A stretch of 21,186 bases of DNA from an uncultured virus (IMG/VR IMGVR_UViG_3300029288_000009) (lineage: Duplodnaviria > Heunggongvirae > Uroviricota > Caudoviricetes): the IMG/VR virus record IMGVR_UViG_3300029288_000009, positions 62,001 to 83,186 of that record; one strand, written 5' to 3'. The notes below the pieces were generated by a model. The model was not told the DNA's origin. It ran no database searches and saw only the letters and a list, made by a program, of their open reading frames with translations. A program made the position numbers and the translations under genes. Of this stretch, positions 3,784 to 21,186 are shown piece by piece; the stretch's first letter is position 1; each line of letters starts with the position of its first letter.

Positions 3784-3811
3784 TATAAACACAAACGCGG
3801 TAATATAACCA
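3781..3811 (+). promoter_or_regulatory. Possible archaeal TATA promoter for a leaderless transcript
   Basis: TATAAA at 3784-3789 lies ~23-28 nt upstream of ATG 3812 and is preceded by purine-rich CAAAAG. GTAATATAA occurs twice in this short intergenic gap. Confidence 0.4.
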
Positions 3812-4231
3812 ATGACTCAAACCTTCAAGTTAACTAACGGCGGTATAACCTTCGGCGCAGACCACCGTATAGAGATGGTTGGAGATGCGAACCAACTCTC
3901 GCTTGAAGAAGTAAGGCAGCGTACAGAAATTCGTTTCACCACTCAAACACGCACGAACTTGATGCACCCAAACGAGGGATTCGATTTCTGGTCACTGCTT
4001 AACGTTAAGAAAGATCCGGAGAACGCCTACCCCATAAAGATAGACCAGTTGATAAAACAAGAAGTTCTCGCGACCCTCGCACAAGATAACATGATAGATT
4101 ACCATAACTCGGAGATCCTTGTATCACCTTCCGAGACTGACAATCGCGGGTGGGTAGTGCGCGTGAACTACACGGTCAAGGGTAATTCCACCAAGCAACT
4201 CGAATACATCGGAGGCTTGAACACGCTATGA
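3812..4231 (+). CDS. Baseplate wedge/sheath initiator (gp25/Mu gp46/DUF2634-like)
   Basis: 139 aa with 'EEVRQRTEIRFTTQ...LMHPNEGFDFWSLL...IKQEVLATLAQDNMI', matching the family pattern. It lies directly upstream of baseplate J. Confidence 0.75.
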   Translation: MTQTFKLTNGGITFGADHRIEMVGDANQLSLEEVRQRTEIRFTTQTRTNLMHPNEGFDFWSLLNVKKDPENAYPIKIDQLIKQEVLATLAQDNMIDYHNSEILVSPSETDNRGWVVRVNYTVKGNSTKQLEYIGGLNTL

Positions 4232-9000: not shown

Positions 9001-12000
9001 TTGTCTATCTTTATAACAACGTCCCAGCATGGGTTTCTACTGGGTTGACGGCATCGTTAGACGCTGTGAATCATTTTGAAGTTGAATGGTCAAACACTGA
9101 TAGAAATGGTGATGCAAACCCAGACGCTCGTGTAATATTGAACGGCGTGTATAGCCCTTGGATAAGAGCGTTCTCAAATTGGGTGACCGGGATAAATATA
9201 TTTAACATATTAACCGGTGTTGCTAACACCGGTATTGAAGTTTATATCAATGATATCACACTTATCACGACTGGTTTAGCATTTAATTCAGCGATAACCA
9301 AGCCTCAAATCTCCTACCCAGACGGAGACTTCCTCGACGTTCGCTTCCTCCAGCGCGGTCGTGAGCCGGTCGTGGAGCCTTATGTAAGGTTGGTAAATGC
9401 TTCCGGTAATGGTACGGAGCAACGCCTTGTATCCTTAAACGATACCGCCGTGATGGATCACCGCGTGGACGAGGTGAACGTCTACATCCCCACCACACAG
9501 ACGAACTACCGTGTACTCGGCGCTGGTGGTGTCAATGCCCAGTGGACAGACGGCCTTATTCCGAACCATTGGTTGCCACTCGCCTTGACGCATCAGATCC
9601 ACGCAAAGTACCCACGTCTGTTCACTCACGATACGTTCTACAACCGGTATCAATTCTGTTACTCTGCAATGACATCGCTGATAACGGAATACTCGCGCAT
9701 AATCGTGGCTAACTTGAACTACGAGAACTGCGCCGAGATGGAATTCACGCCTAGCGTCCACCCGTTCATACACCCGAATAACATAGCGTTCTACCGGGAT
9801 TGTGAGAATGCTCTACCGGAGAAGTTTAGTAATTCGCCGCAGAGGATGAGGAAGTCCGTGCTGGTTCCACAAGAGTTCTTCGCGGACTACGCGGTAGACG
9901 CGGATATAGTTGCTGCTGCGGCCGCGTGGACGGATGGTGGAGCTGCTGCTGGAGCTAGCTTCACGTGTGTTATGGACGAGGGGATGAAAGTTGGGAAGTA
10001 CGTGAGGGACGCTGTTTTATACACGCCTATATACACGTTTCAAACACCGTCTCCAACTATACCCGGTGTTTATTCGATATCATTTGATGTTAAAGCAACG
10101 GTGGGCGAGTTTAAAGTTAGAATAATGGACGCCGCTGGATCGCGCATCTATCTATGGTTCCGCACTGCAAATTACGCTTTGTGGAACGAAACCGGCCCTG
10201 TTTTGATAGCAAACAACGCATGGGGTGCAAGTGATGAATATCCCGCCTATGTAAACGTGAAACTCGTTATTGTTGGAATCGGTGATTTTTACGTGATCGT
10301 TAACGGAATAACGTACGATAATGCTGGTGCGTATTACGCTAATTCATCCAATTTCACTGGGCCGATAACAAAGCTTCAATTCTATTCTACTGCTGCGAAT
10401 ATGTTTTGTATAAAAAACATAGCACCGAACTGGAAACTCTACCCGGACATCGACGCAGATGACTTCATAGTACACCCGCAATACCTCGGACACGCTAAGC
10501 CCGTGGAGATAGTGTCGCTAGAGGACAAGTGGGGTTTTAGGGATTATGGGAAGTACACGGCAATCTCCAACGCGCATCCAACGCGCTCGTGGGTGTCGTT
10601 CTTTATCACAGCTCCATATGGCGTGGATGAAGGAATTGGAGAGGTGATCCTCTACGATATTGCCGGGAACGAAATGCTTTACATTCAAGTAAACCCGATG
10701 AATAACACGGACTTCTCCGTGCATCCCAAGATGATGCTCTACGATTCCACCAGCGCTGGAGGCGCATTGACCGCGATAGATGGAACGTGGAACGGATGGC
10801 TTCCAGTGACCGTCGAGTTCGATAATGATAACCGGAAGGGGAATATCTACTTCCACGGGCAACTCGTTGCGGGCAACATAACACTCGGAGCTGGAGCGCT
10901 GGTGGGCTTCGGTAAGGTCGTGTTCCTTAGCGGGCTCAAGACTGTTGCCCCGGTGCTTGGTATATGGAGGCAAGAAGACTTCCAATCCTACGCGGAGGCT
11001 GCGGCTCCTGGTGCTCCGTGGGCAATCGTTGCTGGTGGAACCACCGCGTTTACAGCGAGGTATTTGGACGGTGATTCTCGTGGGTATTTGAACGATACCG
11101 ACGGGGCTGCCACGCTATCAGCGCAACTGATGTTTCCGATACCATCCACAGCAGCTCCGGCAGCAGCAAGCCCTTATGCTATTAAATGGTCTCAGCAGAT
11201 AAACACTCTTACTAATAACGGATATGCTGCTCGCATAACAGCGGCCGCTCCAGCGAACGGTGACCTTAGAATACAGATACGCGCTGGTGGTGCTATATGG
11301 AACTACACGGCTGGAGCGTGGGCTAACACCGGTCTATTCGCTCCCTTCCCCACGCTAGAACACGAGATCACCATCCAGTTCACCACGAACGCCTTGTATA
11401 ACATCTACGTGGACGGCGTGTTGCAGAACGCTGCCCCGTTAGCAGTTCAAGTGGCGTTCGCTGCGGTGATAACAGACCTAACGTTTTACACGGAAGCGAA
11501 TGCTGATACAGCACAAGTTTACATTGACGACATCGACGTGAGCTGGTCTGATTGCGTTCAGACTGCTGATATACACCACGTCCACGGCTCCCTACTCATT
11601 GACGGTATAACGTTCGGCGGGTACGACAACAGCAACAAGGACTTCTCATCGCAGACAAAGAACTTGTTTATGCTCCCCTACCGGGACTACATCAACCCGC
11701 ATCACTCGACGTTCCATAACAATCTAAACGGGCTTGACCAAGATATAATCCCGTTGCCTCTGTACAACGCCGTCCCGGACGCGTCGTTTAACATTGCTTC
11801 GTGGACACGCGGTGCGTACTGGGATTATTATTCGCTCGCAACTGCTGGAATGTACGGCGGTGTAGTTCGTAACTGGTACGCGTGGAAGTTCCCCTACGTT
11901 TTCGGCGGGAGGTTTGACGAGCCTAACAAGGATATAAAATCAATAGCTCGCCTATACCACGATGTTGCAACTGCGGACAAGAAGACGAGTGGTAAATGGG

Positions 12001-13862
12001 AATTCGTGATGCACGGGAACGCGAGGCAAGTCTACAACGTTAAAGATGATTTCACGGCATACTTGGATGGTGCTGACATACACGGACTGAACGGGTGGAC
12101 GATCTTTCTTTCCGGTGGAAACACGTCGATCCTCGTTAACGGGTATGAAAACAAAAAGGTATTGCATTTTATCGATAACAGCGGGGCTGCATATTGTCAA
12201 GCTACGAACACGTTGGTTAATGAACGCACGAAAGTTTGTTACGTTCATTTAAAAATGGAGATAGATTCCATTACAGACCAGTTCGTGATTTTTTTAGACG
12301 ACACTGCTGGAAACCATACCGCTGCTGTTAGGTTTGAAACTACCGGTCAAATACAAACGATGCAAGCTGGGGCATATGGTAACATAGTTGCATATCTCGC
12401 TAACACGGAATACGATGTCACTATTAAAGTCGATATCGTTCTTGGTAAATATTGGGTTTATATAAATAACATAATGTACGGTGGAATGGTTGGTTATAGT
12501 CTTGGGAATGCCGTTGCAACCGGCGTTAAAACAATTGAATTGCTTACCGACACTGGTGCTATGACTTATAACGTTTATCTATGGGACTTCTCCGCCTACG
12601 GCGAACCCGGTTCCATAGACGTTACCCTCGACTACGACAAGCTCTACGATTCCGGCCTCGTGGAGATCCCCACGCCTCCGATGGATATCTGCGAGAAGTG
12701 GCAACTTCAATTCGTTCCCGCGTCGATAGGAACCAAGGCGATCATACAAGGGGACGGCATATCCGAGGACTTCCAGCAGTACCTCACGAACGTCGTTCCC
12801 ACGACCGGGTGGACTATTGCCGGGGCTTCCGCGACGGCGTGGTTCAAGACGCTGGATGTTGGCGGGAACATCATCGGGTCTTTCCACGATTTTGATGCCG
12901 CCGCGACGCTAGCTGCATCGTTTGTTTTTCCAACACCTAGCACTAATCCGATTTCGCTTAGAACGTGGGTATCCGCTGATATGACACCGATAACAATCAG
13001 TGGACAAAATATGTGGATGTACGTTCGATCCGCCGTTGCTGGAACGATTTACCTTGGTGTTAGTTTCACGACCGGAAACGAGATCAGAGTGACCCAGGGT
13101 GCTGGAACGATATTGATCGGGACGTGGGTTTCTGGCGTTAAATATCGCGTTCAAATCATCGTTATATCATCATCTCTTTACGATGTTATCATTAATGATG
13201 TTCTATACGATAACGCTGGCGCACATTACACACCCTCGTCTCTTTTCACGGTTGCGAACGTTATAGGATCGTTATATTTTGGAGCCGGTGTTATGGCTAT
13301 GACGAATACAGATGTTTATATCGATAATATCGCAGCATCTTGGCTGCGCGCTCCCACCACCATCGCGAACTACGACAAGGCAAAAGCCCTCCACAAGTAC
13401 ACGGTCGAGTGGGATACCGGCTTCATATGGACAAGCATAGATGACAAGTTAGTAGATCAGCGGAAGTATGCCGGTCGCGTCCCGTTCTACTTGGACAAGT
13501 TCAAGGCTCACGTGTGTAGCGGGTATGGGCTCCACGAGATATATGCGGTGATGTTCGGGGCGCAATGCGATAACGAGGCGGCATACGAGCCAAACTGCCT
13601 TGACTTGATACCTGGTGGAACGATGGAGCAAGAGGGATACACCGGCATCTTGAACACGCGAAACAAGGGAACCTACGCGCTCTTGAACGCTGAAGACGAG
13701 TGGACGTTAGAGAAAACAAACTTCTGGAAAACGATGATGCTTGATTCCGGCGGGCTACCAGTTCTCGGTAACTTCGATGACGTTCAGAACGATCTCGTGG
13801 AGTTAGAAAAGAAAGCCGTGGGACATCGGAGCAACGTGTATAACAACGCTAACAAGGTGTAA
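6093..13862 (+). CDS. Giant (2589 aa) virion adhesin / receptor-binding tail fibre or baseplate protein with ~10 ConA/LamG-like beta-sandwich domains
   Basis: ATGA-coupled to baseplate J. The protein is beta-rich, aromatic- and Gly/Thr/Asn-rich, with recurring modules that begin E(D/N/G)F..Y....W and end (V/F)YID.I..SW. No signal peptide or TM anchor is visible. Confidence 0.75.
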   Translation: MIDELISYIPESSYSDKKMLKLYSGLAKNGIIISNSDIEATTTPDQSPLIVKSETPGNKNHKVVVTRLRDDDGVYKVQSAHVIPFNKKGSVSPLTLSSVDIEDSFVSTGYDRFARFGEKQSCDTFVDCIDDLTGIFPSSFLNILPRGSVMRAYDGYSYRSLCYYIDTFLESSPGVYFGSENNAGGLLGFPLDGKTSFQLVKQGIDAVFSISEGTRITSGLYRNDKSGLLKKSASATDWESDASLDLITKWNNHLESIESDPSGNDGFEIEIHDGKKGWCSFWLDLAGLEHVEQNHVVENFEIYAVGNDPSVIDPGHWTKWITGASTFTVQVVGGSQMGDMFAPLGGWDIQTLYTFDNSSPTIFPFTIEFKAGVSTVDLVIRSIFIYGVGGTTSSLIRFFSTMDLGHSLQASLGYVAGTIYNFKVVILNQSYFDIYINGVLFNFSGVHYTINPAFVFPITGLYMSAISAANNQHLYMDVIAPSWIISSGQTSWLELSETRDFLPDATANIYFHNDEIYNEGNTLYRNINFKKLHRVTLSWDYTVASPWNTFRLDDLDPKEFTWDDGGSALVNGFAINAIRIAANYVPVRVHGFCQSGDYFPFVHAESNKQNYLPFNLDLLEKVTGILGPNRRDTEGFKNLRATQPITVDMSCYTIGNIAGQGSWVANAGDDRNGTTEIHDIVECGDTDAFFALKGLQPYGYEGFNTYIDGSKIRDVNGWNAWVEHALCTFVKDSGKARLVKTGDTGGAITKTMTFSTPCSAAGWYEFKLSLNSISVADQQFRFYSGGSLIHYMRISSLGIFACYDNLTSRNIITPMIASTEYTIRIVFGDNATYHLDVTPIGGNVTRFPPIGEYTNYNGGTGFVSSFVINSLQTTVVDFTIDDIITSWNTLGPDILATTPVGKGRVLKIYDNNAGLNLDFQKTILETKAPNGRISFECWPVTGAGGTFLQFTLKEDANIRIQFYINLTTGVVYLYNNVPAWVSTGLTASLDAVNHFEVEWSNTDRNGDANPDARVILNGVYSPWIRAFSNWVTGINIFNILTGVANTGIEVYINDITLITTGLAFNSAITKPQISYPDGDFLDVRFLQRGREPVVEPYVRLVNASGNGTEQRLVSLNDTAVMDHRVDEVNVYIPTTQTNYRVLGAGGVNAQWTDGLIPNHWLPLALTHQIHAKYPRLFTHDTFYNRYQFCYSAMTSLITEYSRIIVANLNYENCAEMEFTPSVHPFIHPNNIAFYRDCENALPEKFSNSPQRMRKSVLVPQEFFADYAVDADIVAAAAAWTDGGAAAGASFTCVMDEGMKVGKYVRDAVLYTPIYTFQTPSPTIPGVYSISFDVKATVGEFKVRIMDAAGSRIYLWFRTANYALWNETGPVLIANNAWGASDEYPAYVNVKLVIVGIGDFYVIVNGITYDNAGAYYANSSNFTGPITKLQFYSTAANMFCIKNIAPNWKLYPDIDADDFIVHPQYLGHAKPVEIVSLEDKWGFRDYGKYTAISNAHPTRSWVSFFITAPYGVDEGIGEVILYDIAGNEMLYIQVNPMNNTDFSVHPKMMLYDSTSAGGALTAIDGTWNGWLPVTVEFDNDNRKGNIYFHGQLVAGNITLGAGALVGFGKVVFLSGLKTVAPVLGIWRQEDFQSYAEAAAPGAPWAIVAGGTTAFTARYLDGDSRGYLNDTDGAATLSAQLMFPIPSTAAPAAASPYAIKWSQQINTLTNNGYAARITAAAPANGDLRIQIRAGGAIWNYTAGAWANTGLFAPFPTLEHEITIQFTTNALYNIYVDGVLQNAAPLAVQVAFAAVITDLTFYTEANADTAQVYIDDIDVSWSDCVQTADIHHVHGSLLIDGITFGGYDNSNKDFSSQTKNLFMLPYRDYINPHHSTFHNNLNGLDQDIIPLPLYNAVPDASFNIASWTRGAYWDYYSLATAGMYGGVVRNWYAWKFPYVFGGRFDEPNKDIKSIARLYHDVATADKKTSGKWEFVMHGNARQVYNVKDDFTAYLDGADIHGLNGWTIFLSGGNTSILVNGYENKKVLHFIDNSGAAYCQATNTLVNERTKVCYVHLKMEIDSITDQFVIFLDDTAGNHTAAVRFETTGQIQTMQAGAYGNIVAYLANTEYDVTIKVDIVLGKYWVYINNIMYGGMVGYSLGNAVATGVKTIELLTDTGAMTYNVYLWDFSAYGEPGSIDVTLDYDKLYDSGLVEIPTPPMDICEKWQLQFVPASIGTKAIIQGDGISEDFQQYLTNVVPTTGWTIAGASATAWFKTLDVGGNIIGSFHDFDAAATLAASFVFPTPSTNPISLRTWVSADMTPITISGQNMWMYVRSAVAGTIYLGVSFTTGNEIRVTQGAGTILIGTWVSGVKYRVQIIVISSSLYDVIINDVLYDNAGAHYTPSSLFTVANVIGSLYFGAGVMAMTNTDVYIDNIAASWLRAPTTIANYDKAKALHKYTVEWDTGFIWTSIDDKLVDQRKYAGRVPFYLDKFKAHVCSGYGLHEIYAVMFGAQCDNEAAYEPNCLDLIPGGTMEQEGYTGILNTRNKGTYALLNAEDEWTLEKTNFWKTMMLDSGGLPVLGNFDDVQNDLVELEKKAVGHRSNVYNNANKV
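6981..13343 (+). repeat. Six ~186-194-aa homologous modules at 6981-7541, 8190-8753, 9870-10433, 10971-11546, 12042-12599, 12762-13343
   Basis: Starts: VENFEIY, YEGFNTY, QEFFADY, QEDFQSY, KDDFTAY, SEDFQQY. Ends: MDVIAPSW, IDDIITSW, IKNIAPNW, IDDIDVSW, LWDFSAY, IDNIAASW. Lengths are near-identical (558-582 nt). Confidence 0.85.
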
Positions 13863-13865
13863 CAA

Positions 13866-14522
13866 ATGGACATCACCCTATCCAATATGAACGTGAACCC
13901 GGAAACATACGGGAAGTTTTTCTCCCTCTACTTGAACGACTTCAAGGCGGAGCGAGATGCCGCGATGCGGTTATTCGACGTGTACACCTTCACAAACGGT
14001 TATACCGATGACCTATTTCAGTTTAGTATCATCGGTCTCCAAGGTTCCATAGCGCGCCTACTCGCCATCCCAGCGATCCAGCTCAGCCAGATCCGGGACA
14101 CGGCGAGGTGGATACACTTCTCCAAGCTCATACAAAACAAGAGTGGGTTATCATTGTTAAAAAGCGCCGAGGAGATGCTTCCGGAATCACCGGCGGACAT
14201 CGGAGAGGAGAACACGCGAGATCTAATGGAGTTAATGTTCAAGAGAAAGAAGCCGAACATGGAAAACTTGAAAGACTTCCTCGCATCGCTCTACGGTGTA
14301 AACAAGAAGTATTTCACGATAGGCGAGCGTGAATCACAAGCCGCGGTGGATATCCCCATCGTGTATCCCCGCCCTAACGGGATAATCGAGTCATCTGGCT
14401 TTAACTCCTTCTTGGAGAGCGTGATCGACAAGTTTAAATCAGCGGGAATCACTTATGTATATGTAGAAATACTCACAGTAGTAACTACAGTACACATACA
14501 TTCGATAGTGACGATAACATGA
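13866..14522 (+). CDS. Baseplate wedge subunit (P2 gpI/Mu gp48-like)
   Basis: 'NMENLKDFLASLYGV' and the C-terminal 'VIDKFKSAGITYVYV' match the wedge-I family ending (K/R-P/S-A-G/H). It sits in the baseplate operon. Confidence 0.6.
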   Translation: MDITLSNMNVNPETYGKFFSLYLNDFKAERDAAMRLFDVYTFTNGYTDDLFQFSIIGLQGSIARLLAIPAIQLSQIRDTARWIHFSKLIQNKSGLSLLKSAEEMLPESPADIGEENTRDLMELMFKRKKPNMENLKDFLASLYGVNKKYFTIGERESQAAVDIPIVYPRPNGIIESSGFNSFLESVIDKFKSAGITYVYVEILTVVTTVHIHSIVTIT

Positions 14523-14995
14523 AAATAAGAGGATACTTTGAAATCATCGACCCGGTAACCGGGAAAGTCTTAGCACACGCTGAAAACGACTTGTTAAGCA
14601 AAGGAGCGCGGTTCTTGACATCGTTTGTCGCGAATAGGATGGTAGCGGACGGGTATGGAGCCGCGGCGGTCTACGTTACTCGCATTCACTACGGTAGTGG
14701 TTCTACTCCAGTGGATAACGTGAATGACTTCCGGATGGAGTCTTATGTCGGGACAATCGCGCTTACAACAACAGCGAGGGTTTCTGACACGCTGGTTACA
14801 ATCACCGGGACCATAACCGGGGCAGCGGGAGGGACGTTCATAAGCGAGCTAGGACTTGGGCTGACAGCGGTAGACCCAGCAAACTCTGCGAACTACGTTA
14901 ACGCGGTGATAGACCGCGCCGTGCCAGCTTCCACGATAGTCGTGCCAGAGGGTGTTTCCAGGACGATAACGTATAACTTCGAGGTGATATTATGA
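14519..14995 (+). CDS. Stand-alone tail-fibre attachment/collar-like protein (DUF3751-like fold)
   Basis: The pattern 'ENDLLSKG..FL...VTRIHYGSG......DFRM...ISELGL...IDRAV...TITYNFEV' is typical of fibre N-terminal attachment domains. Confidence 0.6.
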   Translation: MKIRGYFEIIDPVTGKVLAHAENDLLSKGARFLTSFVANRMVADGYGAAAVYVTRIHYGSGSTPVDNVNDFRMESYVGTIALTTTARVSDTLVTITGTITGAAGGTFISELGLGLTAVDPANSANYVNAVIDRAVPASTIVVPEGVSRTITYNFEVIL

Positions 14996-15195
14996 ACGTT
15001 CAGAAAGTGTTGGTTTACTCGACTATAATAATAGCTCTTGTTTTTGCAGCATTATGGTCATTCGCTGTGATAACCGGAGTAAACTACATTAGGGATAATA
15101 TCGATACAATTTCTGGTAGTGTCGAAACGGTTGTTAATTATTTTGTAGATTTCTTTAAATCGATAATAGATGCAGTTCCGGTGTATAATCTATGA
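14992..15195 (+). CDS. Small membrane protein (one N-terminal TM helix plus amphipathic helix); holin-like candidate
   Basis: Hydrophobic stretch VLVYSTIIIALVFAALWSFAVITGV. ATGA overlaps at both ends. Confidence 0.6.
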   Translation: MNVQKVLVYSTIIIALVFAALWSFAVITGVNYIRDNIDTISGSVETVVNYFVDFFKSIIDAVPVYNL

Positions 15196-15734
15196 GCATA
15201 TCCCCAGACAAACTACGCGAGCAGATGGAGCAGACCATAACCACGATGCTCCCCACCATAAGTGAAGAGTTGAAAAGCCGCATCAAGTTGGAACTCAAGA
15301 AGCAGTTCAGCTCCGGTTTAGAAGAGGAGAAAGCTGCTGTTGGCGAATCCTTGAAAGAGTTGAGCAGCAAAGAAGCAGAAGCCCTCAAGGTTATTAAAGG
15401 AGAACTTGAAGACATCAAAAAAGAACTCTCCGCTGAGAAAGCAGATGCTTTGAAAGTCATCACGAAGAATGTTTCCGAACTTTCCACGAAGCTTGGTTTA
15501 GACCCGAAGCTATCAAACATCTTGCTAAGCCTTCCTAATCTACGTGATGGTATCACCGCTGAAGTATCGCTTGCAAACAAAGCGTGGGAAGATCTAAAGG
15601 CGGAGCGAGCAAAGGTGACAAAGGATAAGCATGAAATCACGATCAAAGCAACAAACCTTATCCTCGCTATCGTTATCACCGCGATTAGCGTGCTCTACGC
15701 GATAATACAACTCATCATGATCATAAAGGGGTGA
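15192..15734 (+). CDS. Coiled-coil protein with C-terminal transmembrane anchor
   Basis: K/E/L-rich heptads with an internal near-repeat (KELSSKEAEALKVI / KELSAEKADALKVI) and the C-terminal hydrophobic LILAIVITAISVLYAIIQLIMII. Confidence 0.7.
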   Translation: MSISPDKLREQMEQTITTMLPTISEELKSRIKLELKKQFSSGLEEEKAAVGESLKELSSKEAEALKVIKGELEDIKKELSAEKADALKVITKNVSELSTKLGLDPKLSNILLSLPNLRDGITAEVSLANKAWEDLKAERAKVTKDKHEITIKATNLILAIVITAISVLYAIIQLIMIIKG

Positions 15735-16414
15735 TTTCTTTTCTTTTTTCTTTCGCGGACGACCTCTCCGACTTCCTGGAAGCAGTCCAGCAGTTTGTCC
15801 CGTGGATCGTAGCCATAGCGACTATAATTGGTGTTATCATCAAGATACGCCGGGACGTGGTGTATAAGCTCAAGAGCGAGATGGGAAAGGACATGCTTTA
15901 CCTCGGCTTCAAGATGATACGCGAGATATTCGATGAAGTCCCGGCGAAGTCCTTGTTTGATTTTCTAAAGGAGTTCAAGCGGAAGTACGTCTTGGAAAGC
16001 GACATGAAGGAAACAGTTCTAACCCTCGCGAACATCGCGCTTGTCCAAGGCACGGTGAAGACGTTAAAATCGCTTGGAAAGAAGGTGAAGAGGAAAGATA
16101 AGTCCGCCATCGAGATCAGCAACAAGAAGTTTCTTAACCGCCTTCGCGCTAACCGGGACTTCGACGCGGCGATAGAGAGCATGTCGATAATCGTGAACGA
16201 GCAGTTAAAGATCCAGTCGAAGTTAACCAGGGAGAAGATGCAGCCGTTCATAGACGACATAAACACCATTCTTAACACGGCTAAGGAGAACATTCCGGCT
16301 AATCGCGAGAAGAGGATGGAAGCGGAGTCGTTAAAGAGGAAGGCCGCTGATGCGAAGTGCGACGCTGAGAAAGCGGAGATAGGAAAGAAATTGCACAAGA
16401 TATTCCGCCGATAG
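15731..16414 (+). CDS. Membrane-anchored helical protein (N-proximal TM helix, basic soluble tail)
   Basis: TM segment FVPWIVAIATIIGVII followed by KIRR. GTGA overlap with the upstream stop. Confidence 0.65.
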   Translation: MISFLFSFADDLSDFLEAVQQFVPWIVAIATIIGVIIKIRRDVVYKLKSEMGKDMLYLGFKMIREIFDEVPAKSLFDFLKEFKRKYVLESDMKETVLTLANIALVQGTVKTLKSLGKKVKRKDKSAIEISNKKFLNRLRANRDFDAAIESMSIIVNEQLKIQSKLTREKMQPFIDDINTILNTAKENIPANREKRMEAESLKRKAADAKCDAEKAEIGKKLHKIFRR

Positions 16415-16446
16415 CCTTATATACTCCTTTTGATATATACTCAATT
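16415..16446 (+). promoter_or_regulatory. Archaeal TATA-box promoter candidate (leaderless) at the start of the replication module
   Basis: TTATATA at 16417-16423 lies 24-30 nt upstream of ATG 16447, with no Shine-Dalgarno sequence. It sits at a functional module boundary. Confidence 0.55.
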
Positions 16447-17166
16447 ATGCGGATGTTTTTTGTTGATACCCAAGAACCCCTCCACGTTGTCAATTCGGCT
16501 CGGCAGTGGGTTAAAAACTCTGATCTTGGTGTTGGGCTTCAAATACGCGCGCTGAAAAACTACGACTTTTTATTTGTCCATGATGATTTAACCCTCGGGA
16601 TGGAACGAAAAAATATCGAGTCCGGGGACGCGCTGAAGTCCATCTTTAACTCAGACCTAAAGAATAAAATGTCCGGGATAATAGAATCGGGTATCCACGG
16701 TTTCTTAGGTGTCAGCGGCGAGAAGAACGCTCTACCTCCGACCAAGCAGATGGCAATCGACACGATAGAGACGGAGTACACGATGGTTGGTATCCCGTGT
16801 CTCGAAGCAACGAACGACTCGCTCTTGATACGGAAGTTTGTCCAAGCGTGTCGAATGCTTATCGGAAAGAAGAAGATTGTTATCAAGCCGTTCCTGGCTC
16901 CCACTCGGGAAGCCGACACGGTGCTGATCCGCATGATAAAACAATTCCCTGGCTTCGATGATGACGCTAAGTTTCTCGCCGGGGATAGTAACTCGTGGAT
17001 GGAATTGTTTGGATTAGAACACGATGGAATGACCGATGCGTTCAAGCAGTTCCTATCCGACAAGTTAAGAAGGAATAAAGGTAACGACCCTCAGCCAGAC
17101 CCGTTAGAGAAGGTGGTTGAGCTGGTGGATTGGTTCTTTGAAGGAGAATTGAAAACCGTTGATTAG
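16447..17166 (+). CDS. ERCC4/XPF-family structure-specific endonuclease
   Basis: 'FFVDTQEP' (cf. VDxRE), 'LKNYDFLF' (cf. L..GDY), 'GMERKN...D...SI' (ERK..D...S catalytic motif), followed by HhH-like 'MIKQFPGF'. Confidence 0.8.
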   Translation: MRMFFVDTQEPLHVVNSARQWVKNSDLGVGLQIRALKNYDFLFVHDDLTLGMERKNIESGDALKSIFNSDLKNKMSGIIESGIHGFLGVSGEKNALPPTKQMAIDTIETEYTMVGIPCLEATNDSLLIRKFVQACRMLIGKKKIVIKPFLAPTREADTVLIRMIKQFPGFDDDAKFLAGDSNSWMELFGLEHDGMTDAFKQFLSDKLRRNKGNDPQPDPLEKVVELVDWFFEGELKTVD

Positions 17167-17167
17167 T

Positions 17168-17815
17168 ATGGCAGAAGACAAGACAAAGACGATGATAAAG
17201 AACATGAAGCAGATTTTCATGGATGAAAGCTGCTTCGGGAAGTTGGAAGCGCCTTGGAAGCGCGCGCTGCTCGGATTCAAGAAGTTGTCACAAGATTCAA
17301 ACGTGACAATCTTCACGACGCCGGACACGCTCAAGGCATTGGAAGCGATGTTGGACAAGCACTTCGGAAGGAACGTCGAGAAGGAGTTCTACGACTCCGT
17401 GGAAGTGTTAAACGCGGATGGTTCGCAGAAGCTTGACAAGGATGGGCGCCCGGTGTTCGAGCGAAAGAAGCGCATGGAGAAGGTTCGCGAGCTTGAAGTT
17501 GCTCCAGTTTACAAGGTGGAGTACACCGATAACGGAAAGATTGGTTTCTTGAATACCGTTCTCAAGGCGATGTCGTGGGATACATGGGTTCTCGATACCA
17601 AGAAGAATGTTATTGCCGGTCTGTTCGGTATGAAGGACTACAATTCCATCGTGGAGTTCAAGCGGCAATTAAACTCCGGTTTCATGATGGAAGCCTTCTT
17701 GATAGCAGACACGAACGACTGGCAGAACGTCGTCAAGGTGGACGAGGCCGATCTTCGCGAGGTCAAGCCCACGGCAGATGTCAAGAAGTTAACGACAAAA
17801 TCGGTTATAACGTGA
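17168..17815 (+). CDS. Hypothetical protein, possibly a divergent PIN-fold (ATG 17168 preferred over the TTG at 17159)
   Basis: The ORF is solid by packing and codon usage. There is a weak PIN-like pattern: IFMDES...IFTTPDTLKAL...WDTWVL...FLIADTND. Confidence 0.5.
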   Translation: MAEDKTKTMIKNMKQIFMDESCFGKLEAPWKRALLGFKKLSQDSNVTIFTTPDTLKALEAMLDKHFGRNVEKEFYDSVEVLNADGSQKLDKDGRPVFERKKRMEKVRELEVAPVYKVEYTDNGKIGFLNTVLKAMSWDTWVLDTKKNVIAGLFGMKDYNSIVEFKRQLNSGFMMEAFLIADTNDWQNVVKVDEADLREVKPTADVKKLTTKSVIT

Positions 17816-17826
17816 TCTTTTTTTCA
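17816..17826 (+). terminator. Possible archaeal oligo-T terminator
   Basis: A T7 run (17818-17824) follows the TGA of the upstream gene, with no hairpin. Confidence 0.35.
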
Positions 17827-17846
17827 CCTATACTTTCGTGGTCGAG

Positions 17847-18770
17847 ATGGATTTTCACCCTTTTAATCGCAAGGAATTGGGCGACAAAATCACTCTTTCA
17901 ATAACCATTGGACGCGCTGTTGCATTGACCGGTGGTATAGGAGTAGGCAAGACGTTTCTCGCGCGAGCCGCGATGGACCATATCAAATGCAACGCGATAG
18001 AGTTCGACGCGAATTTTCCGATACAAGAAGCCAGGATTCCTAAACAAGCCTTCAGCTTCGGTAAAAGTTATGGCGTTCTGATAGAAGGAATGGAAAACGC
18101 AATTGCTGATACTTACAAGATGATAAAGAAGCACGTGTTTAAAGACACTTCAAAAAATGGAGATGGTTTGTGGTATGAATCGAGGTTTCCCACCATCTTT
18201 TGCATCTCCAGCAAGTCTAAATTCAAGTTCGGAGAAAAATACTGCGATTTTATAGAAGTACCACCGCTTTCACGAGAAGATATCATCGACGTGTTATCCA
18301 GCATAAACAAGAAAGATTTTGCTCCGGATATCTTGTATGTGATAGCGGATTCTTGTAAAGGAGATATACGGAAAGCGATAAACGCCATGCAAATAGGCCG
18401 GATAGAGGAGACTGGTAAATACGATAAACTTTCCGACATGGTTAAGGTGTTTCTTGGTTGCGACCCGGAAGATCGAATATCGGTGCTTGCCGATAATAAG
18501 GTTGGAGAGTATGGCGGGGTTGGACTGGAGTACCTCATATCACTTGTATCAAGGAACATTAAAGGCTCCGCTGCTGAAGTTAAAAGCGACATGAAAATAC
18601 TCGACAATGCTTCTCGCTTGAAGTACGTTAACGCGGAAGCTGCGAAGTTAATGCTATGCGGTCTAAACCAAAACCGCGTGAGATTTTTAAAGTGGCCTAA
18701 GAAGAAGGTGGATAAGAATGAACCCGGACACGATAATGCAAAAACTAACATGGCTGTCGAAGAGGATTAA
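17847..18770 (+). CDS. rfcL: Replication factor C large subunit-like clamp-loader ATPase (start 17838 GTG or 17847 ATG)
   Basis: Walker A GGIGVGKT, 'IEFDAN' (cf. IELNAS), degenerate Walker B 'VLIEGME', 'SRFPTIFCI' (cf. PIILIAN), and sensor-2 'CKGDIRKAINAMQ'. Confidence 0.75.
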   Translation: MDFHPFNRKELGDKITLSITIGRAVALTGGIGVGKTFLARAAMDHIKCNAIEFDANFPIQEARIPKQAFSFGKSYGVLIEGMENAIADTYKMIKKHVFKDTSKNGDGLWYESRFPTIFCISSKSKFKFGEKYCDFIEVPPLSREDIIDVLSSINKKDFAPDILYVIADSCKGDIRKAINAMQIGRIEETGKYDKLSDMVKVFLGCDPEDRISVLADNKVGEYGGVGLEYLISLVSRNIKGSAAEVKSDMKILDNASRLKYVNAEAAKLMLCGLNQNRVRFLKWPKKKVDKNEPGHDNAKTNMAVEED

Positions 18771-19317
18771 CCTCCGCGACAAGAAGATGTTATCCCTCGC
18801 CTATAACCTACTCGACAAGGCGAAAGCGGATGGATACATCAAGGATGCCCAGTTATTCCAGATAGTCCACGCCTATGTCTCGGCGGCCAAGCTAATGGGA
18901 TTACACGTTAACTTGTTTCAGTTAAAGAAGATAACCAAGGTTCAAATTGGATTAACTGGATTAGAGTTATACATTAAAACAATAGCGCCTTTACTGAACA
19001 TCCAGCGAGCTAACTTCTCTTTGCTCGAATACGGGAAGCGGAAGTTAAATCGACACGTGTTAAGCATTCCAGCTTGTGAGATGTTCGTGGATGCACTACA
19101 AGGTATAGAGAAGGATTTATCGAAGGTCGTGAATAATGGGAACATGGATAGATACCTCGGGTCGCTGCTGTACGTGGTCACGAGGACGCTAAACGTCCCG
19201 CCTTCCTTCGCCGCCGTGTGTCGGATGTTCCACGTGAGCGAGGTAAAAATGCGGGCGGTGATGCCGGTGATAAACGAGATGTTAAACAAGAAGAAGGAGA
19301 ACGAGAGCAATGAGTGA
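18718..19317 (+). CDS. TFB/TFIIB core-like protein (two cyclin folds, no Zn ribbon)
   Basis: Repeat 1 is 'LSKRINL...LAYNLLDKAKADGYIK...IVHAYVSAAKLMGLHVNLFQL'. Repeat 2 is 'GNMDRYLGSLLYVVTRTLNVPPSFAAVCRMFHVSEVKMR', paralleling TFB 'G.SP..LAAAALY......TQ.EVA....VTEVTVR'. Confidence 0.7.
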   Translation: MNPDTIMQKLTWLSKRINLRDKKMLSLAYNLLDKAKADGYIKDAQLFQIVHAYVSAAKLMGLHVNLFQLKKITKVQIGLTGLELYIKTIAPLLNIQRANFSLLEYGKRKLNRHVLSIPACEMFVDALQGIEKDLSKVVNNGNMDRYLGSLLYVVTRTLNVPPSFAAVCRMFHVSEVKMRAVMPVINEMLNKKKENESNE

Positions 19318-20233
19318 AACATACGCGCAAAAATACGAGCCTAAATATTATGACGAATTGATAGAATGTGACGAAGTAAAAGAGTTATTCAAATCGAAAA
19401 CAGCAGATGAGATGCTTAACTACGCGTTCACCGGAACACCAGGAACGAGCAAATCATTGATGGCGAAGATAATCGCGAATGATAAGTTTCCACGAAATAA
19501 TCACACGTGGAACATGAGCCTTGAAGGGACTAAAGCGAATATAGAATCAGAGGTGATGTCTTTTTGTAGCGAACCGGCGCTTGGTGGAGCGAAATACAAG
19601 CTGGCGATATTCAGCGAGGCTGATGGAATAACACCGGCAGCTCAGAAGGCTTTGCGCGTCCCGATGGAGGATTTCGCGGACACGATAAAGATAATCATCA
19701 CCGCGAATTATCAATCCAAGATAATCGACGCTCTTCTATCTCGTGGTTGCACGATACGGTTTAATAAACCTTCCTTGAAAGGAATCATCGAGTGGGTTAG
19801 CCGGATTGCTTCCGGAGAGAAGTTGAAAATAACAGAAGCGCAGATACAAGGCGTTGCTAAGGAAGCTGGCGGAGACTTCAGAAAGGCTGCTAATCTTCTC
19901 CAAGGGTGGACCGCGGGAAAGAAGGTGTTCTATAAAGTCAAGACGGAAGTGGATAAGGATATCTCAGATTATCTAAAGGAGATATTAGTACCAGATCTTG
20001 ACAAGTCAATGACCTTAGCCGAGTCAATGCTACTCAAGTATAACGAGCGTGACCTTGTAAATGATATTACCAGGAAGATCGCGACCAGTACATTACCACA
20101 GCTAGTCAAAGCTAATATACTGGTATCTTGTAAAGATCTAGCTCTATCAATAGAACATACTGACTCGTATGTAGCAATACACGGGTTTACTGGAGATCTA
20201 ATTAAATACATAGCTGCGGTGAAGAAGAAGTGA
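19310..20233 (+). CDS. rfcS: Replication factor C small subunit (clamp loader)
   Basis: 'YAQKYEPK' (cf. WVEKYRP), 'FTGTPGTSKS', 'YKLAIFSEADGITPAAQKALRVPME', 'IIITANYQSKIIDALLSRG', 'GGDFRKAANLLQ'. Confidence 0.9.
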   Translation: MSETYAQKYEPKYYDELIECDEVKELFKSKTADEMLNYAFTGTPGTSKSLMAKIIANDKFPRNNHTWNMSLEGTKANIESEVMSFCSEPALGGAKYKLAIFSEADGITPAAQKALRVPMEDFADTIKIIITANYQSKIIDALLSRGCTIRFNKPSLKGIIEWVSRIASGEKLKITEAQIQGVAKEAGGDFRKAANLLQGWTAGKKVFYKVKTEVDKDISDYLKEILVPDLDKSMTLAESMLLKYNERDLVNDITRKIATSTLPQLVKANILVSCKDLALSIEHTDSYVAIHGFTGDLIKYIAAVKKK

Positions 20234-20655
20234 AGATAATAAGAAAGCTTACATACACGGATAAGAGTTATATCAAGCTAGATGATGAATATCCGTTATC
20301 AGCTTATATATACGGAGAAGTTCATAACCTGGATGATGTAGTTAACTTAGATATACTAGCTAGAGATATACTACATAGAAACGGTATAAGATATACTGGA
20401 GATCCAATATTATATCTAAAGAATAGCTATACTTGTAGCTACTGGCCTCAATGTGGTAGATTTATACCGGATAATGACGGTGTTAAAGATAGTAGGAGAG
20501 CTAAAGGTAACAAGTTCATACGGTGTAGTAAATTAACTAGTAAAGGAGTACAAGGTATATTTGATACTACAATGATAGAGTTCGAGAGGAGAGTAGCTAC
20601 AATAACTAGTATTAGTGACTCTAGCAGCTTTAATAATAATATTATAGTTCACTAG
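20230..20655 (+). CDS. Hypothetical protein with atypical TA-rich codon usage
   Basis: 141-aa open frame with a GTGA overlap to the rfcS stop. No family was recognised, and it lies in the CTAG/TA-rich zone. Confidence 0.5.
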   Translation: MKIIRKLTYTDKSYIKLDDEYPLSAYIYGEVHNLDDVVNLDILARDILHRNGIRYTGDPILYLKNSYTCSYWPQCGRFIPDNDGVKDSRRAKGNKFIRCSKLTSKGVQGIFDTTMIEFERRVATITSISDSSSFNNNIIVH

Positions 20656-20745
20656 TAATTACTAGTTATATTAATTATATTTATATAGTATCTTAGCTAC
20701 GGGAGGAGCGAAGCGACGACCCTCCTCTAGTAAGCTCTAGTAAGC
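20630..20745. other. Candidate replication origin (or packaging/terminus signal)
   Basis: An AT-rich tract at 20630-20698 contains the perfect 16-bp palindrome ACTAGTAATTACTAGT (20651-20666). A GGAGG/CCTCC stem (20702-20706/20721-20725) encloses GCGAAGC (20708-20714). CTCTAGTAAG occurs twice in tandem (20725-20744). This overlaps the longest intergenic region in the window. Confidence 0.5.
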
Positions 20746-20771
20746 ACGCTGAAAATCTTCATTCTCTTGTT

Positions 20772-20827
20772 TAGAAAGGTTTAAATATCCATATTGATAT
20801 TCTTCTTTTATCACGAGTTGCGTGATA
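20772..20827 (+). promoter_or_regulatory. Archaeal BRE-TATA promoter with downstream inverted-repeat operator
   Basis: AGAAAGG is followed by TTTAAATA (20780-20787). A perfect IR TATCACG-N5-CGTGATA (20809-20827) covers the expected start site and the GTGA RBS-like motif before ATG 20832. Confidence 0.65.
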
Positions 20828-20831
20828 TCTC

Positions 20832-21047
20832 ATGGGTTTGAAGGATAAAAAAGTCTCCGTGATTCTCGCGGAGCCCGCACAATTCCGAACGCAGACTTCA
20901 CAGTACCAGGCTAAGGTAATGCCAGCCGTGAAGCTTCCAAACGAGTCACCCATCTTTGATCGAGTCAAGAAGGGTGATCCGGTGGAGATGTGGGCTGAAT
21001 TGGACGGAAAGGACTTGATAATCGTAGCGAGGATTGGAATATCATGA
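20832..21047 (+). CDS. Small AbrB/SpoVT/MazE-like (swapped-hairpin) DNA-binding protein
   Basis: 71 aa with 'AVKLP......VKKGDPVEMW..DGKDLII', matching the V.IP...L..GD.V......I.I pattern. It is the first gene after a promoter/operator. Confidence 0.5.
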   Translation: MGLKDKKVSVILAEPAQFRTQTSQYQAKVMPAVKLPNESPIFDRVKKGDPVEMWAELDGKDLIIVARIGIS

Positions 21048-21186
21048 GCAAAAAGACGTTAAACGTCACGGATTGGGGTTTCCTGGATGATCTCGCGGAG
21101 TTCAAGGTTTCCGCGGAGGATCTCAAGAAGATCTTCAATGACGAGGTTGAAGAGATTGTCGAGATAGATCCGGAGATTCCAGAAGA
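21044..21186 (+). CDS. 5' end of an acidic hypothetical protein (partial; MSKKTLNVTDWGFLDDLAEFKVSAEDLKKIFNDEVEEIVEIDPEIPE...)
   Basis: ATGA overlap with the upstream stop. The frame is open to the window end. Confidence 0.65.
   Translation, partial: MSKKTLNVTDWGFLDDLAEFKVSAEDLKKIFNDEVEEIVEIDPEIPE

What the first reader, a model, noticed from the sequence alone, without database searches (positions are those of the whole stretch)
18718..19317. Viral TFB core without Zn ribbon/B-reader, wedged between the two clamp-loader genes
Seen: 199 aa with two cyclin-like repeats and a C-terminal HTH-like 'AAVCRMFHVSEVKMR', no N-terminal CxxC ribbon, and overlaps with both rfcL and rfcS. Established: in TFB the ribbon recruits RNA polymerase while the core binds TBP/BRE, and in T4 late transcription is coupled to the loaded sliding clamp. 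Inference: it may be a dominant-negative inhibitor of host initiation, an altered-specificity factor for viral promoters, or a component of clamp-coupled late transcription in an archaeal virus. The last option is speculative and rests only on gene order.
Basis: partly seen in the sequence, partly recalled or inferred. Interest (0 to 1): 0.7.

Follow-up and report, generated by a model that had tools for sequence, protein, structure and literature searches.

The report
Ribbon-less viral TFB-core-like protein
A small conserved gene of an archaeal tailed virus, squeezed between its two clamp-loader genes, probably encodes only the promoter-binding half of the transcription factor TFB, which could let the virus block or redirect transcription; the fold is not yet proven.

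Summary
The ORF is real: 18718..19317, with the likely start at 18736 (193 aa). Four relatives share 75-87% identity. It has no Zn ribbon and overlaps both neighbours. These are a degenerate RFC-large-like gene upstream and an RFC-small gene downstream. The window is the last 21 kb of an 83-kb tailed virus with direct terminal repeats. Its host is most likely archaeal.

The TFB-core reading rests on several weak lines that agree:
- Pfam TFIIB repeat, E 0.002, below the cut-off.
- 22 of 30 language-model neighbours lie in TFIIB-bearing clusters.
- hhalign against 18 TFBs gives P 4e-4, colinear over both repeats.
- The ORF ranks first of 87 viral ORFs against the TFB core.

Against it, two AlphaFold models failed (pLDDT 42 and 39). 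HMMER over 1.84 billion proteins found only the ORF's own family. So the fold is probable, about 0.75-0.8, and not shown.

It shows no similarity to T4 gp62 or to the RFC-large C-terminus. The gene order could be traced only in close kin.

Best reading (0.4): a ribbon-less TFB decoy or regulator at TBP/BRE-TATA promoters, made together with the replication genes.

Full-length viral TFBs are already known, so this is a new variant of a known kind. Clamp-coupled transcription stays speculative.

The parts
17838..18770 (+). RFC-large-like AAA+ clamp-loader subunit (307-310 aa). Walker A is present. The Walker B region looks degenerate (my reading of the alignment). The C-terminal tail is conserved.
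   Evidence: NCBIfam RFC large E 5.2e-8; PHROG clamp loader E 3.1e-6; hhalign against 17 archaeal RFC-L, Prob 98.6, E 9e-16, aa 20-184; three homologues at 65-67% identity, all 309-311 aa.
18718..19317 (+). The ORF in question: an all-helical protein of 199 aa, or 193 aa from the probable start at 18736. TFB-core-like, with no Zn ribbon, B-reader or B-linker.
   Evidence: homologues start at M7; TFB similarity; helical, low confidence.
18736..18770 (+). 35-nt stretch that codes in two frames. It holds the last 11 codons and the stop of the RFC-L-like gene and the first codons of the ORF. Both readings are conserved in the homologues.
19141..19257 (+). Stretch matching Pfam TFIIB repeat positions 46-84 (aa 142-180). 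It includes the HTH-like 'AAVCRMFHVSEVKMR' (aa 165-179, nt 19210-19254), which aligns to the TFB 'VTEVTIRNRY' helix.
   Evidence: (the only PF00382 match in the whole virus, E 6.8e-4).
19310..20233 (+). RFC-small-type clamp-loader ATPase (307 aa). Its start overlaps the ORF's stop by 8 nt, and an AAGGAG lies about 10 nt upstream.
20230..20655 (+). 141-aa ORF of unknown function, last gene of the overlapping run (4-nt overlap with rfcS).
   Evidence: no Pfam, PHROG or NCBIfam match.
20776..20788 (+). AAGGTTTAAATAT: one of 12 copies in the virus of an A-rich-BRE/TATA-like motif. It lies 44 nt upstream of ORF 20832..21047.

Best explanation
The gene encodes only the two-cyclin-repeat core of an archaeal TFB/TFIIB-type factor. 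The core includes the C-terminal helix-turn-helix that in TFB reads the BRE. The Zn ribbon and the B-reader/B-linker, which recruit and position RNA polymerase, are missing. The gene sits inside, and is translationally coupled to, the virus's clamp-loader genes, so it is made together with the replication proteins.

Most likely working: the protein docks on TBP bound to BRE/TATA promoters. Without a ribbon it cannot bring in RNA polymerase. It would then compete with host TFB and silence or re-weight promoters. Targets would be host promoters and the virus's own 12 strong BRE/TATA promoters in the small-gene region, once replication genes are on.

Shown here: the gene, its conservation, the absence of a ribbon, the overlaps, the clamp-loader neighbours, the promoter motif, and weak but colinear TFB-core similarity.

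Inferred: the fold, binding to TBP and DNA, competition with TFB, and the timing.
For: The gene is real and constrained.
- Four homologues at 75-87% identity.
- That is at least as conserved as its neighbours (RFC-L-like 65-67%, RFC-S 73-74%).

TFB-core similarity.
- Pfam TFIIB is the top family for 5 of 5 members, best E 0.0011. The next family, RB_B, is a cyclin-fold family by my recollection, not by any search.
- PF00382 has a single match in the whole 83-kb virus, and it is this ORF (E 6.8e-4).
- In the ESM Atlas, 22 of 30 nearest clusters carry TFIIB. The top score is 0.93 with 197 of 256 shared features. The clusters are 155-212-aa proteins of Thermoproteota and Uroviricota.
- hhalign against 18 TFBs scores 32.5, P 4.4e-4, over 163 colinear columns. 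Shuffles reaching that score: 0 of 60 column shuffles and 2 of 60 block shuffles. The reversed sequence scores 14.1.
- Against the TFB core, the ORF ranks 1 of 87 viral ORFs: score 28.5, P 7.3e-4, 175 columns. The runner-up scores 21.2 over 62 columns.
- Each half aligns in register to a TFB repeat (P 0.002-0.1).
- The predicted helices repeat a long-long-short-long pattern with a period of about 97 aa.
- 'SEVKMR' aligns to the TFB 'TEVTIR'.

Archaeal setting.
- The 80 best RFC-S loci in genomes are archaeal by their record titles, with Aenigmatarchaeota on top.
- PolB is nearest to haloarchaeal tailed viruses.
- The motif AA-N2-3-TTAAATA[CT] occurs at 12 sites against 0.86 +/- 1.0 in shuffles.

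Domain roles: the Zn ribbon recruits RNAP and the second cyclin fold reads the BRE (PMC7289017, passages read).

No TBP and no second TFB were found in the virus.
Against: - No confident structure: pLDDT 42.3 and 39.3. No fold search was possible.
- The Pfam hit is under the gathering cut-off and covers 39 residues only.
- HMMER over 1.84 billion representatives found only the ORF's own family at E <= 0.001.
- PDB sequence searches found nothing.
- An HMM of 11 cellular TFBs ranks the ORF only 2nd of 361 six-frame ORFs, at E 0.86.
- The family's HMM finds no TFB in 1470 archaeal ORFs or in five archaeal genomes.
- With the 11-TFB profile, 15 of 100 block shuffles reached the real score. Much of the signal is therefore the local HTH.
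- The two halves do not detect each other (P 0.42).
- The host is unknown.
- No expression data exist, and no binding was tested.
Confidence: 0.4

Rival explanations
1. It is an initiation factor with altered specificity. The core binds TBP and a virus-specific upstream element. RNA polymerase is recruited through another protein, for example one of the virus's many stand-alone Zn-ribbon proteins acting as a ribbon in trans. This would switch on middle or late viral genes.
For: - The recognition helix keeps V..R but changes the following N-R-Y (alignment).
- The long + strand gene array that holds the structural and replication genes lacks the BRE/TATA consensus found at 12 other sites.
- 24 of 124 ORFs carry two or more Cx2-4C motifs. 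Three small ORFs align to the TFB ribbon: genome 23509-23661(-), P 5e-5; 38313-38594, P 3e-4; 50068-50277(-), P 3e-4. The 93-aa one also has a weak Pfam TFIIB zinc-binding hit, E 5.8e-4.
- Sulfolobus TFB3 is a precedent for a truncated TFB paralogue acting in trans (PMC7289017).
Against: - Zn ribbons resemble each other generically.
- None of the candidates is adjacent to the ORF, and none has a B-reader.
- No late-promoter motif was identified.
- No split TFB is known to me (recalled; no search was made for one).
Confidence: 0.15
2. It is a replication-linked factor with a TFIIB fold. It would be tethered to the clamp loader or clamp, as gp55 and gp33 are in T4 late transcription. Alternatively it would be an Orc6-like DNA-binding accessory of an AAA+ loader.
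For: - The conserved overlaps with both clamp-loader genes suggest coupled synthesis.
- A viral TFIIB lies two genes from PCNA in Halorubrum tailed virus DL1.
- TFB, RFC-S and PCNA are named in sequence in the genome-map legend of magrovirus YSH_150918 (the figure itself was not seen).
- Asgard MGEs share PCNA and TFB (preprint 10.1101/2021.07.29.453957, passages read).
- The nearest Atlas cluster to the N-terminal half carries ORC6 (0.86, a lead only).
- The T4 record notes gp45 as a mobile enhancer of late transcription.
Against: - No PIP-like motif in the ORF or in 7 viral TFBs.
- The C-terminus is polar.
- No PCNA was detected in this virus at E <= 1.
- TFB lies within 6 kb of RFC in only 2 of 80 archaeal loci, which is about chance.
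- Gene neighbourhood alone is weak evidence.
Confidence: 0.12
3. It is not TFB-related. It would be an unrelated helical protein whose similarity to TFIIB is limited to a chance HTH-like motif. One option is a clamp-loader accessory subunit, such as a gp62 analogue or a split-off C-terminal part of RFC-large.
For: - All TFB evidence is sub-threshold.
- Block shuffles often reach the real score (15 of 100).
- The viral RFC-L-like protein (about 310 aa) is 75-180 aa shorter than the archaeal RFC-L found here (385-490 aa).
- T4 gp62 has a similar size of 187 aa and also lies next to gp44.
- hhalign against RFC-L gives 19.3, P 0.079, over 29 columns in the C-terminal region.
Against: - No similarity to T4 gp62: score 10.6 over 5 columns.
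- The RFC-L match is short and weaker than the end-to-end TFB alignment.
- No fused RFC-L-ORF form exists among the homologues, which are all 309-311 aa, or in the exhaustive search.
- Pfam, the Atlas and hhalign point to the same family independently of one another.
Confidence: 0.2

Closest known systems
Archaeal TFB / eukaryotic TFIIB (Pfam Zn_Ribbon_TF PF08271 plus two TFIIB repeats PF00382)
   Same: The length and colinear alignment match the roughly 190-aa two-repeat core. The HTH-like helix sits at the end of repeat 2. The virus shows A-rich BRE + TATA-type promoter motifs.
   Different: The whole N-terminal part of about 110 residues (ribbon, B-reader, B-linker) is missing. Identity is only 18% in the profile alignment. 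The ORF is below the Pfam cut-off and invisible to HMMER profiles of cellular TFBs.
Virus-encoded full-length TFB homologues (Sulfolobales viruses YNP1 and YNP2; rudiviruses SSRV1, ARV2, ARV3, MRV1; Halorubrum lacusprofundi tailed viruses; magrovirus YSH_150918; Asgard viruses and MGEs)
   Same: They are TFB-family genes carried by archaeal viruses. In Halorubrum tailed virus DL1 the gene lies beside a replication clamp gene. TFB genes are reported for the other groups in the papers read.
   Different: All 15 records in the phage collection align from TFB residue 13-19 onward. They therefore keep the ribbon-like N-terminus and the B-reader region, although YNP1/2 and the rudiviruses have lost some or all Cys ligands. 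They are found by tblastn with a cellular TFB (E 5e-40 to 6e-10), whereas this ORF is not.
Sulfolobus TFB3 (truncated TFB paralogue acting in trans)
   Same: A TFB-family protein that lacks part of the canonical architecture and cannot replace TFB (PMC7289017).
   Different: By my recollection, TFB3 keeps the ribbon and lacks much of the core. That is the opposite truncation to this ORF.
T4 clamp-loader small subunit gp62, and T4 clamp-coupled late transcription (gp45, gp55, gp33)
   Same: A protein of about 190 aa encoded next to an RFC-small-like ATPase.
   Different: There is no sequence or profile similarity to gp62. No clamp-binding motif was found. Here the gene lies before the ATPase gene, not after it.
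Eukaryotic Orc6
   Same: By my recollection, Orc6 is a ribbon-less protein built of TFIIB-like cyclin-box domains that works with an AAA+ loader in replication. An ORC6-bearing cluster is the nearest Atlas neighbour of the N-terminal half (0.86).
   Different: The score is below the level the tool treats as more than a lead. There is no Pfam ORC6 hit. Archaea are not known to have Orc6 (recalled).

Membership tests
TFB/TFIIB (PF08271 + 2x PF00382) | N-terminal Zn ribbon (CxxC...CxxC) that binds the RNAP dock | tested here: not met
   Only two Cys (C120, C168) and no CxxC. The ORF starts at the first start codon after a stop. No Zn-ribbon Pfam hit.
TFB/TFIIB (PF08271 + 2x PF00382) | B-reader / B-linker between the ribbon and the core | tested here: not met
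   The alignment to TFB begins at core column 7-12. Only about 5-20 residues precede repeat 1.
TFB/TFIIB (PF08271 + 2x PF00382) | Two TFIIB cyclin repeats recognised by the family model above its cut-off | tested here: not met
   There is one partial match of 18.3 bits against a 23.6-bit cut-off, at aa 142-180. Profile-profile alignment covers both repeats at P 4e-4 to 7e-4.
TFB/TFIIB (PF08271 + 2x PF00382) | HTH at the end of repeat 2 that reads the BRE | tested here: inconclusive
   'VSEVKMR' aligns to 'VTEVTIR', but the following N-R-Y is A-V-M. DNA binding was not tested.
TFB/TFIIB (PF08271 + 2x PF00382) | Binds the TBP-TATA complex | not testable with these tools
   The host and its TBP are unknown.
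Cyclin-like fold superfamily | Two five-helix cyclin boxes in 3D | tested here: inconclusive
   AlphaFold2 gave pLDDT 42.3 and 39.3. The models are all-helical, with a helix pattern repeating about every 97 aa. No fold search was run.
T4 gp62-type clamp-loader subunit | Sequence or profile similarity to gp62 | tested here: not met
   hhalign score 10.6 over 5 columns, P 0.62.
RFC large subunit (split-off C-terminal part) | Similarity to the region of RFC-L that follows the AAA+ and lid domains; existence of fused forms | tested here: not met
   hhalign score 19.3, P 0.079, 29 columns. All RFC-L-like homologues are 309-311 aa and none is fused. The exhaustive search found no longer relatives.
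Orc6 | Pfam ORC6 (PF05460) match | tested here: not met
   No Pfam hit at E <= 1. There is only an Atlas neighbour at 0.86 for the N-terminal half.

The most novel reading that the evidence does not exclude
Archaeal tailed viruses may have evolved a counterpart of T4's clamp-coupled late transcription. A TFB-core promoter-recognition protein, made with and bound to the viral clamp loader or the loaded PCNA, would tie middle or late transcription to replicating DNA. The recurrent placement of viral TFB genes beside PCNA or RFC genes would be the footprint of this. It is seen here, in Halorubrum tailed virus DL1, and apparently in a magrovirus.
Probability: 0.08. Interest if true: 0.85.

Novelty: new variant of a known kind. 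Interest (0 to 1): 0.5.

Why it matters
Archaeal viruses encode no RNA polymerase, so they must take over the host's TBP/TFB machinery. Very few viral factors that act on this machinery are understood.

Truncated TFB cores are, by my recollection, laboratory tools that bind promoters without recruiting polymerase. A natural, conserved TFB core without its recruiting ribbon would be a simple mimicry-type switch, comparable to an anti-sigma factor.

It would give a directly testable handle on host shut-off or early-to-late switching in an uncultured archaeal virus. Its fixed place between the clamp-loader genes, and the TFB-PCNA adjacency in another archaeal virus, also raise the question of whether archaeal viruses couple transcription to replication.

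Tried and rejected
**Searches for related loci, to test synteny.** All came back empty.
- ORF family in viral contigs, in metagenome contigs and in genome contigs.
- RFC-S of the window and the 37%-identical RFC-S P0009 from an 84.5-kb contig in viral contigs.
- The contigs of the relatives could therefore not be read. Synteny in close kin rests on equal contig lengths and on one bridging contig.
- ON649702 (magrovirus YSH_150918) is not in the phage collection.

**Complex prediction.** RFC-L-like + RFC-S + ORF gave no answer (ipSAE 0.00 in both runs). Controls were not run. This is not evidence either way.

**RNA evidence.** No RNA holder is listed.

**Search of cellular genomes.** The ORF family profile over 301 genomes of the phylum of an Aenigmatarchaeota MAG gave 6 hits at E 0.007-0.09, which is chance level. 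The two I inspected are an epimerase-like protein (my reading of its sequence) and an unrelated helical ORF.

**Survey for short TFIIB proteins.** A PF00382 survey of 151 genomes of another phylum, meant to collect short ribbon-less TFIIB proteins, listed only the top full-length TFBs and was abandoned.

**Inserts between rfcS and rfcL.** The 550-725-nt inserts in 4 archaeal loci encode unrelated proteins.

**Other checks.**
- Sigma-70-like promoters are not enriched in 14500-21186 (10 found against 11.0 +/- 3.4 expected).
- No tRNA genes in genome positions 1-63000. The rest of the window, 63001-83186, was not scanned.
- Earlier findings of this scan: nothing.
Full report
**What is there.** The window is the last 21 kb (62001-83186) of an 83,186-base virus record with direct terminal repeats, estimated complete.

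ORF 18718..19317 (+, 199 aa) is real. Four homologues of 193 aa share 75-87% identity, and all start at the residue equal to M7 (nt 18736). That is the likelier start, although an AAGGTGGA lies 5-6 nt before 18718.

The protein has two cysteines and no CxxC. It overlaps the upstream gene (17838..18770) by 35-53 nt. Both reading frames of that overlap are conserved in the relatives. It overlaps the downstream gene (19310..20233) by 8 nt.

The downstream gene is an RFC-small-type ATPase (NF001679 E 8.4e-43; phrog_168 E 1.2e-36). The upstream gene is RFC-large-like in its AAA+ and lid part only (NF003229 E 5.2e-8; hhalign against 17 archaeal RFC-L, Prob 98.6, E 9e-16, aa 20-184). It is about 310 aa in all four members.

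**The virus and its host.** The record encodes:
- a baseplate J protein and a 2589-aa protein;
- a Mu-F/portal-like protein, endonuclease VII and three DNA methylases;
- a PD-(D/E)XK nuclease, a PrimPol and a split family-B polymerase.

Most proteins match no PHROG.

The N-terminal PolB fragment matches haloarchaeal tailed viruses best over its full length (26.5%). The RFC-S matches T4-like phage gp44 (27-31%) and halovirus RFC-S (26%) about equally. Among genomes, however, the 80 best of 497 confirmed loci are archaeal by their titles. I take one, Candidatus Culexmicrobium, to be archaeal from memory. Aenigmatarchaeota lead at 31-38%.

A motif AA-N2-3-TTAAATA[CT] occurs at 12 distinct sites, against 0.86 +/- 1.0 in 100 dinucleotide shuffles. 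It is an A-rich stretch abutting a TATA box, as the archaeal BRE/TATA is described in PMC7289017 (passages read). Most sites lie 35-60 nt upstream of small genes at 24.7-36.8 kb. One lies in the window at 20776-20788. An archaeal host is likely, but it is not identified.

The DNA is held whole by one landfill-metagenome run, which may be its source. Parts are held by a second landfill study and by a sediment study.

**Is it a TFB core? Evidence for.**
- Pfam TFIIB repeat is the top family in 5 of 5 members (E 0.0011-0.0023). It matches aa 142-180 to profile positions 46-84, but at 18.3 bits against a 23.6-bit cut-off.
- PF00382 has a single match in the six-frame translation of the virus, and it is this ORF.
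- In the ESM Atlas, 22 of 30 nearest clusters carry TFIIB. The top score is 0.93 with 197 of 256 shared features. The clusters are hypothetical proteins of 155-212 aa from Thermoproteota and Uroviricota.
- The N-terminal half alone gives only leads: an ORC6-bearing cluster at 0.86 and a TFIIB-bearing cluster at 0.84.
- hhalign of the family against 11 archaeal TFBs taken from five genomes gave score 22.8, P 0.02, over 160 colinear columns.
- Adding 7 viral TFBs raised this to 32.5, P 4.4e-4, over 163 columns. Of 60 column shuffles none reached it, and of 60 block shuffles two did. The reversed sequence scores 14.1.
- As single sequences against the 18-TFB core, the ORF ranks first of 87 viral ORFs: score 28.5, P 7.3e-4, with 175 of about 193 columns aligned end to end. 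The runner-up scores 21.2 over 62 columns.
- In an earlier test with 95-aa windows, its C-terminal half ranked 1st and its N-terminal half 7th of 239.
- The helices predicted by AlphaFold repeat a long-long-short-long pattern with a period of about 97 residues.

**Is it a TFB core? Evidence against.**
- Both AlphaFold runs failed (pLDDT 42.3 with the 5-row alignment and 39.3 alone). No fold search was meaningful.
- An exhaustive HMMER search of 1.84 billion representatives found only the ORF's own family.
- PDB sequence searches found nothing.
- An HMM of the 11 cellular TFBs places the ORF 2nd of 361 six-frame ORFs, at E 0.86.
- The family's own HMM finds no TFB among 1470 archaeal ORFs, in five genomes, or in 301 genomes of one phylum.
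- With the 11-TFB profile, 15 of 100 block shuffles reached the real score. Much of the signal is therefore the local HTH.
- The two halves do not detect each other.

I put the TFB-type two-cyclin fold at about 0.75-0.8.

**Rival identities tied to the clamp loader.**
- T4 gp62 (187 aa, encoded next to gp44) shows no similarity: score 10.6 over 5 columns.
- An alignment of 17 archaeal RFC-L proteins gives 19.3, P 0.079, over 29 columns.
- No fused RFC-L-ORF form was found.
- In 53 of 77 archaeal loci rfcL follows rfcS directly. The few inserts between them are unrelated genes.
- A TFB lies within 6 kb of RFC in 2 of 80 loci, which is about chance.

**Synteny.** The homologues of the ORF, of the RFC-L-like gene and of RFC-S share contigs of the same lengths:
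- 6870 bases for all three genes;
- 5502 and 3576 bases for the first two.

A 470-nt contig from another study bridges the ORF's 3' end and rfcS. Beyond this close kin I could fetch nothing. Halovirus HCTV-5 has no such arrangement.

**What is known.** Full-length TFB homologues are reported in several groups:
- some rudiviruses and Asgard viruses and MGEs (PMC13700489 and preprint 10.1101/2021.07.29.453957; passages read);
- a magrovirus (PMC10768690, whole text read; its figure legend lists TFB, RFC-S and PCNA in sequence, but the figure was not seen);
- all thaumarchaeal ICEs (PMC6563490; passages read).

In the phage collection a cellular TFB finds 15 records by tblastn. All align from TFB residue 13-19 onward, so they include the ribbon-like N-terminus. 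In YNP1/2 and the rudiviruses the Cys ligands are partly or wholly lost.

In Halorubrum tailed virus DL1 the TFIIB gene lies two genes after PCNA.

In four literature searches I found no description of a viral TFB reduced to the core alone. Supplements were not consulted.

**Mechanism.** In TFB the ribbon recruits RNA polymerase, and the second cyclin fold reads the BRE (PMC7289017). A core-only protein should therefore sit on TBP-promoter complexes without recruiting polymerase.

My best reading (0.4) is a decoy or regulator made together with the replication genes. It would damp host promoters, the virus's 12 BRE/TATA promoters, or both.

The alternatives are:
- an altered-specificity factor that uses a ribbon supplied in trans (0.15). 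The virus has many Zn-ribbon ORFs, none of them specific;
- a replication- or clamp-coupled role (0.12). There is no PIP motif, no viral PCNA and no viral TBP;
- an unrelated helical protein (0.2).

The single complex prediction gave no answer.

**Verdict.** This is a real, conserved, ribbon-less gene that most probably encodes a TFB-core-like protein. It is a new variant of a known kind, the virus-encoded TFB homologues. It is of moderate interest, because both the fold and the function remain to be shown.

Noticed in passing
window 20776-20788; genome sites 24715, 26733, 28083, 29651, 32025, 32079, 32559, 34712, 36592, 36803, 50262 (G000 coordinates): A BRE/TATA-like motif AA-N2-3-TTAAATA[CT] occurs at 12 distinct sites, against 0.86 +/- 1.0 expected. 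Ten cluster in the small-gene region at 24.7-36.8 kb, on both strands, 35-60 nt upstream of start codons. They are probably early promoters.
   Followed up: partly
L002:8496-10349 and L002:10346-11191 (G000 8496-11191): The family-B DNA polymerase is split into two overlapping ORFs. The first holds the exonuclease and the start of the polymerase domain, and the second holds the rest. The magrovirus genome map also names separate PolB-NTD and PolB-CTD parts.
   Followed up: no
window 6093-13862: A 2589-aa ORF lies directly after a baseplate-J gene. Its only Pfam match, a sialidase-like carbohydrate-binding module, is just under the cut-off. It is probably a giant tail fibre or adhesin.
   Followed up: no
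L121 (OP630574) 2090-3876: In Halorubrum tailed virus DL1 a PCNA gene, a 33-aa ORF and a full-length TFIIB gene lie in a row, upstream of a P4-type primase. This is a second case of a viral TFB gene beside clamp genes.
   Followed up: partly
G000 whole record; e.g. 23509-23661(-), 38313-38594(+), 50068-50277(-): 24 of 124 ORFs of 45 aa or more carry two or more Cx2-4C motifs. Three small stand-alone Zn-ribbon ORFs align to the TFB ribbon region (P 5e-5 to 3e-4). That resemblance is probably generic to Zn ribbons.
   Followed up: partly
L004:8320-10137 (G000 46320-48137): The Mu-F-like head-morphogenesis or portal-associated protein also carries a LAGLIDADG-like domain at aa 387-434. This may be an inserted homing endonuclease or an intein remnant.
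   Followed up: no
window 17838-18770: The RFC-large-like protein keeps Walker A (GGIGVGKT). Where archaeal RFC-L has the Walker B motif DEVD, it reads LIEGME. It may be a non-catalytic subunit. This is my reading of the alignment.
   Followed up: no
L002:15579-17435 (G000 15579-17435): An N6/N4 DNA methylase whose Pfam match is split (aa 42-488). It is interrupted by a block with four CxxC motifs at aa 322-377.
   Followed up: no
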